Source: Treponemataceae bacterium (GTDB lineage: Bacteria > Spirochaetota > Spirochaetia > Treponematales > Rectinemataceae). From it: a stretch of 64,000 nucleotides of DNA. Of this stretch, positions 24,001 through 42,000 are shown piece after piece (position 1 is the first letter of the stretch; every line of letters starts with the position of its first letter). The stretch covers positions 1,152,001-1,216,000 of the forward strand of contig CAXXVZ010000003.1 of NCBI GenBank assembly GCA_963678065.2. Reading direction: 5' to 3'. Position numbers: made by a program.

Positions 24001-27000
24001 CCATCATCTTCCGGAAATACCCGAAACGCCTCGGGAGAGGGCCCCGGCCAGCGGCTCTTCCTCGCCTTCAACCTTCCACCGCGCGCCGCGGAGCACCTCG
24101 AAAGCCTGGCCGCATCGTGGGCCGCCGACTATCGCAAAGGGCGCGGGGGAAGCGGGAAAAATGGAGCCGATTATTCCGCGATAAGCGTCGCCCTGGTTCC
24201 GCGACAAAACCTCCATATCACCCTGCATTTTCTCGGGAATGTCGACGCGGCCATGGAGGCGGAACTCCGGAACGGACTGCGTCGGATTGTGACAGATTTC
24301 GCGCCCCTGTCATTCGATACAGGTCGCGTCCTCTGCTTCCCGGGCCCCCGCGATCCGCGCATCCTCGCCCTCGAGTGCCTGCCCGGGGAAGGAGGAAAAG
24401 CCCGCGAACTCGCGCTGTCCTCTGCCCGCCTCCTTGCCGACCTGGGGATACCGGTGGATCGCCGCCCCTGGCGGCCCCACGTCACCCTCGCCCGATTCCG
24501 CGCGGAAAATGAGGCCGGCCGGCTCTTACGGAATGGCAAAGAGCGGAGCGCCGCGGACGCTGCCGGCCGGGAAGATCGCCCGGGAGCGCGGAACGCATTC
24601 CCGAAAAGCGTCTCCTTCAGGGCCGCATCCCTCGACCTCATGCTCTCCCTCCTCTCTCCGGCGGGAGCCAGATACGAAGTCGTGGAGCGCTTCCCTTTCG
24701 GGGGAGGAAAAATCCCGGCGCAATCTGACGATCCATAAAGCTCAGCCGATTCAGGATCCCCGGCGTTCCTCGAGACCGACAATGAGGTCGACCTCGGCGA
24801 CACTCAGACCCAGGCGCGCGGCTATGACTTCGGATGTGAAACCGGCGCGGTAGAGGTCGAGAGCCTCCGTCTTCGGGGATTTTCCATGCTGCGCAGGTCC
24901 CGCCGATTCGGCTCCACCGCGAGTGAGGGTTCGACCGGGGGAACGTCCGAGGGCGAGGACGATGGGGAGAGCTGCCCCCTCATCCGGAATCGTGGCCGCG
25001 GTCGCGGCTGCGGTCGCAGATGCGCCGGGAACGCCCCTGCCGCTCTCTCCTGCCCCGTCGTCCGGACGCAGCTCCGGAACGGCGGCCGATCCCCGGGCAG
25101 GCGCGCCGGGCTGGGTGCCGCGAGACTGGGCCTCGTCGAGAAGATCCCGCATGACGGCGATCCTGTCTTCGAGGAGGCCAATGTTGCGCTCGCTGACCTC
25201 TCCGAAATCGACGGCGAGAGCCTCAACCTCGTCGCGAAGCGCGCAGAGCCGCCCCTCGAGTCCCGCAAGCTTCTCGAGCCTCGCCCGGAAGACGAAAAAC
25301 AGGGTGATAAAACCCGCGATCTGGATCGCGGCGAACAAGACTATCGTGGCCATGACTTCAGCCCCGGAGGTCGAGCCGGGCACCGGCCTTTTCTTTCAGG
25401 ATATTCGGCTCCCGCGCGGCGGCCTTGTCCGGAGACATGGCTCTGGGCGCGGGCTTCAGAATCTGGTCTTCGGGGATTCTGCGGACAGGGCGCGGCCGCG
25501 AGGGCTCGATCCCGGCCGTCGGGCCTTCGCCGTGAACGGCTTCCTCCGCCGCCCTGCTGAGAGACTTCAGGGGCGCCGCGGCCGATTTCCCCAGCCTGGT
25601 CGCCGAGACAGCGAGGGCGGACTCCTGGGAGAGAGCGATGGCGGCTGCAACCGCCCAGGGATCTGTGTTCGGATCTGAAATCCTGCCTGACGCCGGAAAG
25701 TCCGCCATGGCGGTTTTAGTAGATACCCTTGCGGTAGTTGGTCAGCTTTGCCCTGAGCCGGATGATGGCCTTGGTGTGGAGCTGGCTGATCCGGGATTCC
25801 GTGACCTCGAGGACCTGGCCGATCTCCTTCAGGGTGAGATCTTCGTAATAGTAGAGGACGAGCACGGTTTTTTCTTTTTCGGGCAGCTCGTTTATTGCCT
25901 GGACGACGACCTTCCGGATGGCTTCCCGCTCCACGGAGGCGTCCGGGTTCATGCTCACCGGAGATTCGATGCTGTCCCCGAGGGAGAGCTGTTCGTCTTC
26001 GGTGCCCGAATACCAGACCTCGTTGAGGGAGAGGATGGCGGTTCCGGATATCTTGAGCATGGTCTTCCCGAATTCTTCTTCGGAGATGCCCATGGAGACC
26101 GCGATCTCCTGGTCGGTCGCCGGACGCCCGAGCCGGCCCTCCAGTTTCGCGACCGCTTCCTCGATCTCGCGCGTTTTCTGGCGGACGGAGCGGGGTATCC
26201 AGTCGATGGCGCGCAGCTCGTCGAAAATTGCGCCGCGTATGCGGGTCACCGCGTAGGTCTTGAACTTGACGTGCTTGCTCGGGTCGAATTTGTCGATCGC
26301 GTCGATGAGGCCGAAAACGCCGTAGCCTACGAGATCCTCGAACTCGACCTGGTTGGGCATGCCCGCGGCAACTTTGCCCGCCACATATTTGACGAGGGGC
26401 GCGTACTGGCGGATGAATGCTTCCCGTATGGCGGGATCGCGAGTCTTGAAATAACGGGGCCAGAGTTCTTCTTCGGTCAAGTGGCTCGTCGGGGTGTCAG
26501 TTTTTCGGTATGAACGAAGATCGCTATCCACGTGTTTCCGGCCCTCCTCTCGCTAGAGTAGGCTCAAACCGGAGCCGCCGTCAAGTTCGGAAACGATCCT
26601 GGCATCGTTATCGCGCGCATGTTTCGCCCGGAAGGGCTGTCTGCCGCGTTCCAGTCGTTCGGCGAAGTGGACGAGCGAGAGCGCCGTCCTCGATCCGGGT
26701 TCCGATTCGACGAGAGGAATGTCTTCGGGACCGGAACCCATGGCAGCCCGTTCCGGGTGGGTGAAGACGCAGCCCCGGTATTCGACGACGGGCGCGCCGA
26801 GTCCCGGAGCGCAGGCTTTCATGACTGCGAGGGCCGTGTTCCGTCCCTCGGCGATGGAGTCAACGCAGTTCACGGCGAGGCGCAGGGCGGGGATCCCGTA
26901 TTCCTGCACCGACGAGAGGAGGTTGATGAAGCCCGCGGCCTCCCTGAGGCCGGAAGCTCCCGGCAGGGCGAGGACGACGGGCTCATCGGCGGCGCGGATG

Positions 27001-39000: not shown

Positions 39001-42000
39001 GATCGGCCTCTCCGGAAGCTTCCGTTGCCCGGTTCCTGTCCATGTGACCGCAGAAGGACCTCAGGGCATCGTACTTTTCGTCCTGATCGATGCAGTCCAG
39101 ACAGGAGATCTCGGCGGCGAGGCACTCTACCTCGGAGGGCGCGAGATGTCGGAAAACCTCCGCCGAGATGTCGGAGCCCAGTGTCACGAGGAGAAGGGCC
39201 GCCTTCCTGCGGGAACCCTGCGCGTCGCCGCCACTCATGATTCGTTTTCCTCGCTGATCCACGAGCGGATGAGTCGGGCGACCTCGGCAGGGTCCTTGCG
39301 CGCCAGCTCGGCCGCTTCCTCCTGCAGACTGGCGCGGCGCCGCTCGAGAAGCTCGGTGTCGTCGGGGCTCATCCCCGCGCCGTCGCGCCCGGCTCCCGCG
39401 CCGGAGTTACGCGCGAGGCGGGCCTTCGTCAGGGAAACGACAAGAAGCACAAAAAGCACAAGAGCGAGGGCCGCGGCAGCCACGAAACCCGTCCGGTAGA
39501 GCCTGTCCGAATCCGCCTTGGCGAAATACGCCGCGTCCTCTGCTTTGAACTGGGCTGTCCTGTCGAAGGGGATGTTGCGGACAGTGAGCGAGTCGCCGCG
39601 CGCGGGCTTGAAGCCGACAGCGTCGCGGATGAGTTCCTCTGCCTGGGAGAGCTCGGCCGCCGGAATGGGGCTGTACTCCCTCTCTATCCCTCCGCGGGGA
39701 TTCACGAGGGGCTTCCCTTTCATGTCGTAGGAGGTTTTCCACAGGCCGTCTATGTTGACCGAGACGGAGATCCTGCCGATGAAGGGCGTGGATTCTTCGT
39801 CGATGCGGCCTGTGCCGGGCGCCGCGCTGCCGACCGCCGGGCCTGACGCATCCGTCTCGATCCTGACGGCGAGGTCGCGCACACGGTCGGCAGTGTAGAT
39901 CTGCTGGAGGGTTTTCAGGACCTGAGCCCGGTAACGCGATTCCATCTCGCGGACAAGCTTCTGCCGGGCGACCGTCTTTTCCAGATGGCCGAGGGGGGCT
40001 GATTCCGTCGCATCGTCCAGGACGACTCCGTCGGAATCCGTTATGACGACATTGTCGGCGGAGAGCCCTTCCACGGCGAAGCAGAGTATCCTGCGCACGC
40101 CCGCTATCTTGGCGGGGTTGCGCGCGAAATCGGAACCGGACTTCGTCTGGAGGACGACCGAGGCGGTGACCGGGTTCTGGTCTTCGCTGAAGAGTTCCTT
40201 TTCGGGCATGACGATGGCGACGTCGGCCCTCTCGATATCGTCTATGGACTCGATGTGGCGCTTTACTGCGGCCGTGACGGCTCTTCTGAGATTGACGTTC
40301 CGTTCGAAGTCGGTCGCTGTCCAGCGCTCCATATCGAAGATCGCCCAGGGATCTGTGCCGGTGGGCAGAAGGTCGTCGCGGATGAGGAGGGATCTCGCCC
40401 TGAGGGCGGAAGCCGCGTCGGGCGCGTAGAGGAAGTTTCCGTCGCGCAGCTCGTAGCTCACATTTCCGGCGTCGAGGCTGTGGGTCATCCTGACGAGGAG
40501 GCTCTGGTCTTTGACGGGGGCTCCGAGAATGCGCACCGAAGCCCGGCCCGCCCCGCCGCCCGGAAAAGCTCCGGCCAGGGCGAGAATGAGGATGGCGAGG
40601 ACGAGAACCGCCGCACAGGCGGCGATGAGCGCGATGATGTTGAAGCCGGACTTCTGCCTGAGATCTTTGATCCGCGCGGCGAGTCCATCGATGAATCCGT
40701 TCATTTCCCCTCCCCCGCAAGCGTTCCGGAAACTACAGAATGTACTTGCTCAAATCCTGCCTCTCCGCGAAGTCGATAAATTTCGAGTCGACGTAGGCCG
40801 CGTCCACCACGACGCTGGTCCCCGCGCGGTCGGGAGCCTCGAAGGAGATGTCCTCGAGGAGTCTCTCCATGACCGTGTGGAGGCGCCTCGCGCCGATGTT
40901 TTCGGTGGTGGCGTTCGCCTGGGCGGCGATCGAAGCGACGCGGGAAACCGCTTCCGGCGAAATTTCGACACTGAGGCCTTCGGTCGCGAGGAGCTCCACG
41001 TACTGGGTCACGAGAGCGTTCTTCGGCTCGGTCAGTATCCTCTCGAAATCCCTGGCCGTGAGGTCCTCGAGCTCCACCCTGATGGGAAAGCGCCCCTGTA
41101 GCTCGGGTATGAGGTCTTCGGGCTTGGAGACGTTGAAGGCTCCCGCGGCTATGAAGAGGATGTGGGAGGTGTCGACGGGCCCCCACTTGGTCGAGACCGT
41201 CGAGCCCTCCACGATGGGCAGGATGTCCCGCTGCACGCCCTCGCGGGAGACGTCGATGCCGCCTGCGCTCCGGCCTTCCCGGTTGGCGATCTTGTCGAAC
41301 TCGTCGATGAAGACGATGCCCATCTCCTGGACGCGGCGCCTCGCCTCCTCGGCGGCGTTGTCGGAATCGACGAGCTTGTCCATCTCCTCGGCCTCGAGGA
41401 TGCGGCGGGCATCCGCCACGTTCACGGCTTTCTTCTTTTTCTTGCCGCCGAACATGGATGTGATGGAGCCGATGGCGGCCTCCATATCCTCCATCTTCGC
41501 GCCGGAGAATATTTCGAGCCCCGGCTGCTGAGCCTGGATGTTCAGTTCGACCTCGCGCTTGTCGAGGGCCCCTGAATGGAGAAGTTTGCGGAATTTCTCG
41601 CGGGAGTCCGTCTGAAAGCCGGTATCACCCGCGACATAGGTGGCCTGGGTGGGGCCTATGGGCTCGACCGAACCCTTGATCCCCGGCAAAAGGAGGTCGA
41701 GAAGCCTCTCCTCGGCCCTGCGCTTCGACTCCTCCTGCACTCCCTGGCGCATCTCTTCCTTGACGGCGGCGATGCCGGCGGCCATGAGGTCGCGTATCAT
41801 CGATTCGACATCGCGCCCGACATAGCCGACCTCGGTGTACTTGGTGGCCTCGACCTTGATGAAGGGGGCCCCGCAGAGCTTGGCGAGGCGCCGCGCGATC
41901 TCGGTCTTGCCGACGCCGGTGGGACCGATCATGAGGATGTTCTTGGGGATGATGTCGGCGCGCATGTCCTCGGAGAGACGCTGGCGGCGCATGCGGTTGC

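What a model noticed while it worked through the whole genome (the two positions that open the first line are those of the whole stretch)
24751..40704. Flagellum cut down to a conserved export-only type III core in a free-living spirochaete
The flagellar operon keeps intact frames for FliF, a FliG without its torque domain, FliH, I, J, a divergent FliM/N-like protein, FliO, P, Q, R, a FlhB that stops just before the NPTH switch domain, FlhA, FlhF, FlhG and FliA, but rod, hook, filament, FliE, FliK, FliL and stator genes are gone. The same truncations are kept in other species, so this is a maintained non-flagellar export machine, not decay.
Evidence so far: In 68 family genomes FlhA and flagellin go together (29 both, 39 neither); only this genome has FlhA without flagellin. 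Against flagellated G026, flgB/flgC/fliE (between hslU and fliF) and the 8-kb fliK-flgD-flgE-fliL block are deleted inside the operon and have no tblastn hit in the genome, so this is no assembly gap. Two other species have a 267-aa FlhB, 57-58% identical, ending at the same point; FliG relatives of 171-229 aa at 66-76% also lack the C domain. dN/dS 0.10-0.48 for 10 genes against G026. Atlas lead for g01677: FliM/FliN, score 0.86-0.87.
(Added by a program. Inside this text positions count along the whole contig: contig position 1,152,001 is position 1 of the stretch shown here. "Call 12" and the like, gene names such as g00115 and contig names such as C1 are that model's own, and its searches are not shown. 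The text may have been shortened before it was handed on; [...] marks where a part breaks off. The agent that wrote the report below was given it as the finding of a first reader that could run no searches.)

Follow-up and report, generated by a model that had tools for sequence, protein, structure and literature searches.

The report
Flagellum reduced to an FlgM exporter
A free-living spirochaete lineage that lost its flagellum long ago still keeps, under selection, a trimmed flagellar protein-export core whose only remaining known cargo is the inhibitor FlgM, so the machine likely serves to pump FlgM out of the cytoplasm and free the sigma-28 factor, which is predicted to switch on a cell-wall enzyme.

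Summary
Confirmed and extended. The operon keeps open frames for FliF, FliG, FliH/I/J, a FliM-FliY fusion, FliO/P/Q/R, FlhB, FlhA, FlhF, FlhG and FliA. Rod, hook, filament, chaperone, stator and separate FlhB-C genes were not found in the genome. Trimming is by domain: FliF collar, FliG torque domain, FlhB switch domain and FlhG P-loop are gone; the FliG-FliM and FlhF-FlhG contact motifs stay. Selection is current (strain pN/pS 0.27-0.33 in flhA, in-frame indels) but relaxed. Two trees place this lineage as sister to all non-flagellated Rectinemataceae sampled, so retention is probably old. New: the genome keeps full-length FlgM, the only known flagellar export substrate left; sisters without the core deleted flgM (36 of 37 loci) yet keep FliA and a conserved sigma-28 promoter on a LysM-M23 peptidase gene. 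Rod-less, FliK-less, Fluke-less Salmonella lacking the FlhB C-domain export FlgM constitutively (PMC13344023). Best reading (0.5): a late-locked FlgM exporter that frees sigma-28. Export is untested, FliE is missing, and the other species are known from proteins only.

The parts
39235..40704 (-). fliF, MS-ring protein (489 aa); about 75-90 aa of the beta-collar deleted, ring-building motifs and C-terminal FliG-binding end kept; follows hslU after 28 nt, where flgB-flgC-fliE lie in flagellated relatives
   Evidence: Salmonella collar residues 271-381 from passages of 10.1101/2020.10.11.334888
38537..39238 (-). fliG (233 aa): N domain, M domain with EHPQ motif and the first part of the C domain; torque part and N-M linker lost
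37668..38540 (-). fliH (290 aa), fast-evolving, N-terminus degenerate
36325..37662 (-). fliI export ATPase (445 aa); Walker A, GERGRE, Walker B and the LLERxG and YPAVD motifs present
35945..36328 (-). fliJ (127 aa), divergent
   Evidence: profile of family FliJ, E 2e-5 among 26 window proteins; TIGR02473 E 8e-4
34437..35948 (-). FliM-FliY fusion (503 aa): FliM middle domain with a GGxG-type motif, then a CheC-like FliY domain; no FliM N-terminal peptide, no detectable SpoA domain
   Evidence: 11 best folds for residues about 300-445 are CheC/FliM/FliY/CheX, Z 5.7-7.5, from a low-confidence model
33597..34322 (-). fliO (start codon uncertain)
32767..33600 (-). fliP, export-gate pore; among the best conserved parts
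32484..32753 (-). fliQ
31697..32482 (-). fliR
30897..31700 (-). [quoted passage not shown]
28663..30900 (-). flhA (745 aa); membrane part and FHIPEP loop keep 141 of 182 family-invariant residues, cytoplasmic domain 105 of 218
27449..28648 (-). flhF GTPase; 0-1 amino-acid differences among three strains
26553..27446 (-). flhG with a degenerate P-loop but the N-terminal DQAxxLR helix kept (its role as FlhF activator is recalled)
25716..26531 (-). fliA, sigma-28; also kept next to hslU in non-flagellated relatives
25358..25708 (-). 116-aa ORF at the place of a 112-aa gene of the ancestral operon; no sequence match to it shown
24751..25383 (-). membrane-anchored DUF2802-like ORF, last gene of the ancestral operon

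Best explanation
This is a flagellar type III export core, kept under purifying selection after the flagellum was lost, that likely works as a permanently late-mode exporter of the anti-sigma factor FlgM into the periplasm, which would free sigma-28 (FliA) to transcribe a predicted non-flagellar target, a LysM-LysM-M23 cell-wall peptidase gene. Steps: (1) shown: the parts that touch rod, stator, CheY and the length ruler are deleted, while gate, ATPase, ring and the FliG-FliM and FlhF-FlhG contact motifs remain. (2) Shown: full-length flgM (G000:C3:226289-226576) is the only known flagellar export substrate found in the genome. (3) Inferred from Salmonella genetics: without the FlhB C-domain the gate cannot take early substrates and is locked in late mode, for which FlgM is the cargo. 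(4) Predicted: FlgM still binds FliA. (5) Shown as a conserved motif, inferred as function: a sigma-28 promoter precedes the peptidase gene (G000:C3:324017-325090). (6) Inferred: the sister lineage solved the same problem by deleting flgM, after which the export core became dispensable.
For: Selection: 40 of 196 listed substitutions against strain run X6 fall in flhA, 23 synonymous and 17 non-synonymous, pN/pS 0.27-0.33, binomial p 4e-5 to 4e-4; both indels in 12 kb are in frame. All 14 operon proteins with a cluster have full-length variants in a second strain. Age: G000 is sister to 18 non-flagellated genomes (rooted six-gene tree, support 1.0) and to 8 in a 25-gene ribosomal-operon tree (support 1.0, unrooted). 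FlgM: above the Pfam cut-off in G000; full length in 22 of 22 flagellated loci with sequence; absent from 36 of 37 loci of core-less relatives. In 100 class genomes, all 14 without FliP lack FlgM and 78 of 86 with FliP have it. FliA is kept in 19 of 19 core-less loci. A GCCGAT[AG] box, mostly with a CTCAA/TAAA-like element upstream, precedes the peptidase gene in 27 of 29 loci of the non-flagellated clade (chance 0.07 per window) and in 3 of 5 flagellated ones. FliA-FlgM model: score 0.68 against best control 0.00, partner pLDDT at least 67, runs agree in at least 75% of contacts; the mark was reached by 116 of 157 solved and 2 of 215 mismatched pairs; a textbook pair, so it shows likeness only. 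PMC13344023 (abstract and first three of ten parts read): rod-hook-less, Fluke-less strains lacking the FlhB C-domain secrete FlgM into the periplasm without FliK and do not secrete early substrates. Near-identical RNA contigs cover fliF, fliG, the fliM-Y/fliJ junction, fliJ, fliO, flhA and fliA in two metatranscriptome runs of one study (weak).
Against: No export was observed. FliE is absent; an fliE null cuts hook secretion 8-fold in Salmonella (PMC8546590, passages), and the Salmonella late-locked strain is not listed as lacking fliE. That strain also needed hyperactive FlhDC and loss of Fluke; I did not test for a Fluke equivalent. No SpoA domain was detected and FliH runs at 12.5 against 1.5-2.2 for housekeeping genes, so ATPase docking is doubtful. 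G000 flgM has lost the sigma-28 promoter and strong ribosome site found in flagellated relatives and follows rsmI by 9 nt; it is 41% identical to them (31% in residues 1-40) and below the TIGR03824 cut-off, so it may be weakly expressed. G007 keeps the C-terminal half of FlgM without any export core. FlgM and the core would be lost together under any model of regulon loss, and the family contrast is one lineage against one clade. Why 16 kb should be kept to remove a 95-aa inhibitor needs a regulatory benefit that is not shown. One FliQ cluster member on a 1.1-kb contig has a different C-terminus after residue 69 (P0057): a frameshift or an assembly error. For the two other species only proteins are known; their loss of rod and their flgM are unverified (searches found no loci). 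A genome-wide promoter scan shows no excess over shuffles. The RNA runs have no silent control and may hold DNA.
Confidence: 0.5

Rival explanations
1. It is a working periplasmic type III exporter of new, non-flagellar cargo; FlgM is a passenger or one cargo among several.
For: Gate and ATPase motifs are intact. Precedent: non-flagellated Lysobacter uses its flagellar export genes to secrete non-flagellar proteins (PMC7688988, abstract and first of six parts). It explains why a large machine is worth keeping.
Against: No candidate cargo, chaperone or added gene was seen in the operon; it holds only ancestral genes. FliS and the flgN block are deleted and the FlhA cytoplasmic domain is the most relaxed large part of FlhA. 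I ran no genome-wide search for type III signals.
Confidence: 0.2
2. It no longer exports anything; the MS ring, C-ring remnant, gate and FlhF/FlhG serve as a membrane scaffold, such as a polar landmark or the 'CORE' platform proposed for nanotubes.
For: FlhF is the most constrained gene among strains (0-1 changes in 399 aa) and FlhG keeps its N-terminal helix. FliE, the SpoA domain and the FlhB C-domain, all aids to export, are gone. CORE-only genomes are described in PMC6456723 (section 12 and passages).
Against: A scaffold does not need an intact ATPase with FliH and FliJ, nor full-length FlgM with its N-terminal MxIDRL motif. FlhF conservation also fits a role in assembling the exporter.
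Confidence: 0.17
3. It is a slowly decaying relic; frames stay open because of weak selection against toxic truncations or polar effects on fliA at the end of the operon.
For: Rates are 3-10 times above expectation for most core genes. Between G000 and a second species HslV differs by 0.05 but FlhA by 0.41 and FlhB by 0.83 substitutions per site. FlhG is catalytically dead, and the sister clade deleted the whole block and kept fliA.
Against: pN/pS 0.27-0.33 with p below 0.001; family-invariant sites are kept more often than variable ones in every gene, about twice as often in most; identical FlhB length in three species; deletions follow domain borders; the lineage has probably lacked a flagellum since the deepest split of the family.
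Confidence: 0.13

Closest known systems
[quoted passage not shown] 2026, PMC13344023; abstract and parts 1-3 of 10 read)
   Same: No rod or hook, FliK not needed, FlhB ending at or before the cleavage site, other late substrates removed, FlgM and sigma-28 present.
   Different: Here the state is natural, shared by three species and under selection; FliE, the FliF collar, the FliG torque domain and SpoA domains are also gone; export has not been measured.
Flagellar export genes of non-flagellated Lysobacter enzymogenes OH11 (PMC7688988, abstract and part 1 of 6; PMC7277350 and PMC9927559 seen as search listings only)
   Same: Free-living, non-flagellated bacterium with retained flagellar export genes put to another use.
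   Different: OH11 still secretes the early substrate FlgD; I saw no report there of a truncated FlhB or of FlgM as cargo.
Buchnera basal-body-only flagellar locus and Myxococcales secretin-less T3SS (Abby and Rocha 2012, PMC3459982, passages; 'needleless' T3SS in PMC12075869, search listing only)
   Same: A type III export core kept without motility parts, once called a relic and argued to be maintained.
   Different: [quoted passage not shown] This one is a vertically inherited flagellar operon at its ancestral place, with FlhF, FlhG, FliA and FlgM.
Orphan 'CORE' (FliOPQR-FlhBA) genomes proposed to build nanotubes (PMC6456723, section 12 and passages)
   Same: All six CORE genes kept without a flagellum.
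   Different: FlhB is cut short and the ring, C-ring remnant and ATPase complex are kept too; no evidence for nanotubes here.

Membership tests
Flagellar type III secretion system (export core) | Gate proteins FliP, FliQ, FliR, FlhB, FlhA of flagellar type | tested here: met
   All five present; flagellar models score above the non-flagellar ones; FlhA's best relatives are spirochaete FlhA.
Flagellar type III secretion system (export core) | FliH-FliI-FliJ ATPase complex with catalytic motifs | tested here: met
   FliI motifs present; FliH and FliJ present but divergent.
Flagellar type III secretion system (export core) | FlhB with NPTH autocleavage site and C-terminal switch domain | tested here: not met
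   FlhB ends before NPTH; no separate FlhB-C gene.
Flagellar type III secretion system (export core) | MS ring and C ring (FliF, FliG, FliM, FliN/FliY with SpoA domains) | tested here: inconclusive
   FliF, FliG and a FliM-FliY fusion are present with contact motifs, but no SpoA domain was detected.
Flagellar type III secretion system (export core) | Protein export across the inner membrane | not testable with these tools
   Needs an experiment.
Bacterial flagellum (motility organelle) | Rod, hook, filament and stator genes | tested here: not met
   None found.
Non-flagellar T3SS (injectisome) | Core proteins of the Sct type rather than flagellar type | tested here: not met
   Flagellar models win for FliF, FliP, FliQ, FliR, FlhB and FlhA; ancestral flagellar synteny.
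Non-flagellar T3SS (injectisome) | Secretin, needle and translocon genes | not tested
   None in the operon; no genome-wide search was run.
FlgM-sigma-28 checkpoint | Full-length FlgM and FliA in one genome | tested here: met
FlgM-sigma-28 checkpoint | FlgM binds FliA | tested here: inconclusive
   Model passes (0.68 against 0.00) but a like complex is known (recalled), so it shows likeness only.
FlgM-sigma-28 checkpoint | FlgM removed by export after hook completion | tested here: not met
   There is no hook or FliK, so the textbook trigger cannot apply; export itself is untested.

The most novel reading that the evidence does not exclude
Evolution has produced, and kept since near the root of a bacterial family, a flagellar type III machine cut down to a one-cargo regulatory pump: locked in late mode by loss of the FlhB switch domain, it exports FlgM so that sigma-28 activity, and through it cell-wall remodelling, is tied to the cell's energy or envelope state. 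The lineage is a living intermediate of stepwise flagellum loss, and the same design may have arisen separately in other phyla.
Probability: 0.35. Interest if true: 0.88.

Novelty: new variant of a known kind. Interest (0 to 1): 0.74.

Why it matters
If true, it is a natural test of the 2026 model that removal of the FlhB C-domain is the secretion switch, and a minimal type III exporter that shows which domains export can do without (collar, FliE, torque domain, SpoA domains). It gives an order for flagellum loss in spirochaetes: axial and motor parts first, then flgM, then the export core, with sigma-28 kept throughout, probably for a cell-wall gene. It also offers a concrete reason why 'orphan' export cores persist in non-flagellated free-living bacteria: check for flgM before assuming new secreted cargo.

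Tried and rejected
Scans for loci of the short-FlhB species in metagenome and genome collections returned only distant FlhB at 25-43%. The word-based search found no relative of the FliM-Y fusion; the full HMMER search found two. The first structure model was poor (mean pLDDT 39) and Foldseek gave nothing at E 0.001. An IQ-TREE run timed out, so trees are FastTree with local supports; genomes with fewer than three markers were dropped (G027, G068, and G069). The weak flhA hit in G018 is not a remnant. I first read the peptidase gene as specific to the non-flagellated clade (34 of 39 against 0 of 29); that was a threshold artefact, flagellated genomes have it too. Exact sigma-28 sites in other non-flagellated genomes pointed to no shared target, and genome-wide scans were at chance level. 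The class-wide rod search used too strict a threshold, so its misses are inconclusive. dN/dS against G026 is near saturation and was not relied on. Lateral acquisition rejected: the operon sits at the ancestral hslU-fliA place. Assembly gap rejected: deletions are internal, flanks are joined, and an independent strain contig spans 28663-40704 in one piece. Ten paper searches showed no description of this system or of a natural FlgM-only exporter; the library lacks most subscription papers, and no supplements were read (Table S2 of PMC6456723 lists CORE-only genomes and may bear on novelty).

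
Full report
Observation. The minus strand of 24751-40704 carries open frames for FliF, FliG, FliH, FliI, FliJ, a 503-aa ORF, FliO, FliP, FliQ, FliR, FlhB, FlhA, FlhF, FlhG, FliA and two small ORFs. The genome (5.27 Mb, 5 contigs, 99.9% complete, 6.7% contamination) gave no hit above noise for flagellin, rod/hook, FliD, FliS, FlaA, SpoA domains or a separate FlhB-C gene; flagellated G026 was positive in all of these but, which searched G000 alone. 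Proteins of G026 show that flgB-flgC-fliE, the fliK-flgD-flgE-fliL block, flgN-flgK-flgL-fliW-csrA, flgF-flgG, fliS, flaA and motAB have no match, with flanking genes joined at several loci. Source labels of FlhA homologues point to Rectinemataceae. Runs holding the stretch come from groundwater, sludge, biofilm and lake-water metagenomes where the record names a habitat, which fits a free-living organism.

Anatomy. The losses follow domain borders. FliF lacks most of the beta-collar (Salmonella residues 271-381 by passages of 10.1101/2020.10.11.334888; mapped through). FliG keeps EHPQ and loses its torque part. The 503-aa ORF matches FliM in residues 86-130, including a GGxG-type motif, and FliY in 246-371, in gene order; each match alone is weak. 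Language-model features point to FliM/FliN (0.86-0.87, a lead only), and the 11 best folds for residues about 300-445 are CheC/FliM/FliY/CheX (Z 5.7-7.5, rmsd 3.1-4.0 over 99-121 residues). Two relatives exist, 46% over 511 aa and a 268-aa piece at 41%. FlhB ends before NPTH, at 267 aa in three species. FlhG has lost its P-loop but keeps DQAxxLR. FliI motifs are present, and the FlhA membrane part keeps 141 of 182 family-invariant residues against 105 of 218 in the cytoplasmic domain. The roles of EHPQ, GGxG and DQAxxLR are recalled, not from a call.

Maintained or decaying. Two further strains encode full-length versions; all 14 operon proteins with a cluster have one in strain B, with length changes of whole codons. 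FliO, FliA and the last ORF were not found by exact look-up. One FliQ variant on a short contig has an altered C-terminus (P0057). A strain contig spans 28663-40704 with 196 substitutions and two in-frame insertions. The 40 listed ones, all in flhA, are 23 synonymous and 17 non-synonymous (pN/pS 0.27-0.33, p 4e-5 to 4e-4) and reproduce strain B's FlhA changes; an indirect estimate for the whole stretch is 0.19-0.24. Selection is weaker than before: branch ratios are 1.5-2.2 for housekeeping genes, 2.4-2.6 for FlhF, FliO and FliP, 5.5-7.8 for FliF, FliQ, FliI, FliR, FlhB and FlhA, and 12.5-18 for FliH, FlhG and FliG. Fast change continued after the truncation: against a second species HslV differs by 0.05, FlhA by 0.41 and FlhB by 0.83.

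Age. A six-gene tree rooted on 9 flagellated outgroup genomes splits the family into 15 flagellated genomes (support 0.97) and G000 plus 18 non-flagellated ones (1.0). A 25-gene ribosomal-operon tree of 21 genomes gives the same grouping, unrooted. The simplest reading is one early loss of the flagellum, after which G000's line kept the core and its sister lost it; two separate losses are not excluded.

The cargo. FliA is kept next to hslU in 19 of 19 non-flagellated loci, so it has a job without a flagellum. The one perfect sigma-28 site in G000 lies before a LysM-LysM-M23 peptidase gene. The same box precedes the orthologue in 27 of 29 loci of the non-flagellated clade (30 examined, 1 cut; chance 0.07) and in 3 of 5 flagellated genomes. 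G000 also keeps a full-length FlgM at the ancestral rsmI locus. It is full length in 22 of 22 flagellated loci with sequence (4 more were cut by contig ends, 3 not fetched). It is absent from 36 of 37 loci of core-less relatives (2 of 39 had no rsmI match), and G007 has only the C-terminal half (the profile was built from the flagellated and G000 sequences, and for most genomes only this locus was examined). Among 100 class genomes none has FlgM without FliP: 14 lack both, 78 have both, 8 have FliP alone. In a phylum sample of 150, one 85%-complete genome had FlgM without FliP. A structure model supports FliA-FlgM binding (0.68 against 0.00; textbook pair).

Mechanism. Chevance et al. 2026 (PMC13344023) report that Salmonella lacking rod-hook genes, Fluke and the FlhB C-domain secretes FlgM into the periplasm without FliK and cannot secrete early substrates; this needed raised flagellar expression. 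G000 has that genotype by nature as far as tested, with every other known substrate removed. I therefore read the remnant as a late-locked FlgM exporter that frees sigma-28 (0.5). Against it: FliE is missing (8-fold less secretion in Salmonella, PMC8546590), no SpoA domain was found, flgM has lost its own promoter and ribosome site and is only 41% identical to relatives, G007's half FlgM persists without export, and the contrast rests on one lineage. RNA contigs from two runs of one study cover several operon genes at near identity, without strand, level or a silent control. Rivals: an exporter of unknown cargo (0.2), a non-exporting scaffold (0.17), slow decay (0.13).

Comparison and novelty. 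Export cores without flagella are known from Lysobacter, Buchnera and Myxococcales and CORE-only genomes, so this is not a new kind. I found no paper on a natural switchless core kept together with FlgM as sole known substrate (ten searches, listed under Tried and rejected). It works like a flagellar export apparatus in late mode; it is not a flagellum, not an injectisome, and fails the FlhB switch-domain feature of a standard flagellar export system. Verdict: new variant of a known kind, interest 0.74.

Noticed in passing
L103-L119, L121, L122 (hslU loci of 19 non-flagellated genomes): fliA directly follows hslU in every one: the whole flagellar block between them is deleted but sigma-28 is kept.
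   Followed up: yes
G000:C3:323980-325090 (L246, L288): Perfect sigma-28 promoter 10 nt before a LysM-LysM-M23 peptidase gene; the motif is conserved across the family, often with a CTCAA-like upstream element.
   Followed up: yes
L176:1420-1689 (G007): FlgM remnant matching only profile positions 41-94, in a genome without the export core.
   Followed up: partly
G234, G279, G301, G321 (family f9): FliP in 4 of 4 and FlgM in 3 of 4, but no rod hit at a strict threshold and only one first-look candidate in two of them: possibly a second rod-less export lineage.
   Followed up: no
G000:C5:696790-705909: One chemosensory cluster (two CheW, CheR-, MCP-, CheA-, CheB-like genes and a response regulator) remains although the motor is gone; non-flagellated G049 and G018 have no CheW.
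   Followed up: partly
L002:4391-7991 (G026) against window 25358-26553: A 675-aa gene after fliA and a small gene between flhG and fliA in flagellated relatives have no match in G000.
   Followed up: no
L244 and L256/L287 (G045, G038, G043): Other sigma-28-like sites lie before genes whose G000 orthologues are at C3:173014 and C3:998013; G000 has a one-mismatch site near the latter.
   Followed up: no
window 22439-24738: Unrelated plus-strand genes (507 aa and 249 aa, the latter resembling a 2'-5' RNA ligase by recalled motifs) face the end of the operon, where flagellated G026 has Hsp70- and DnaJ-like genes.
   Followed up: no
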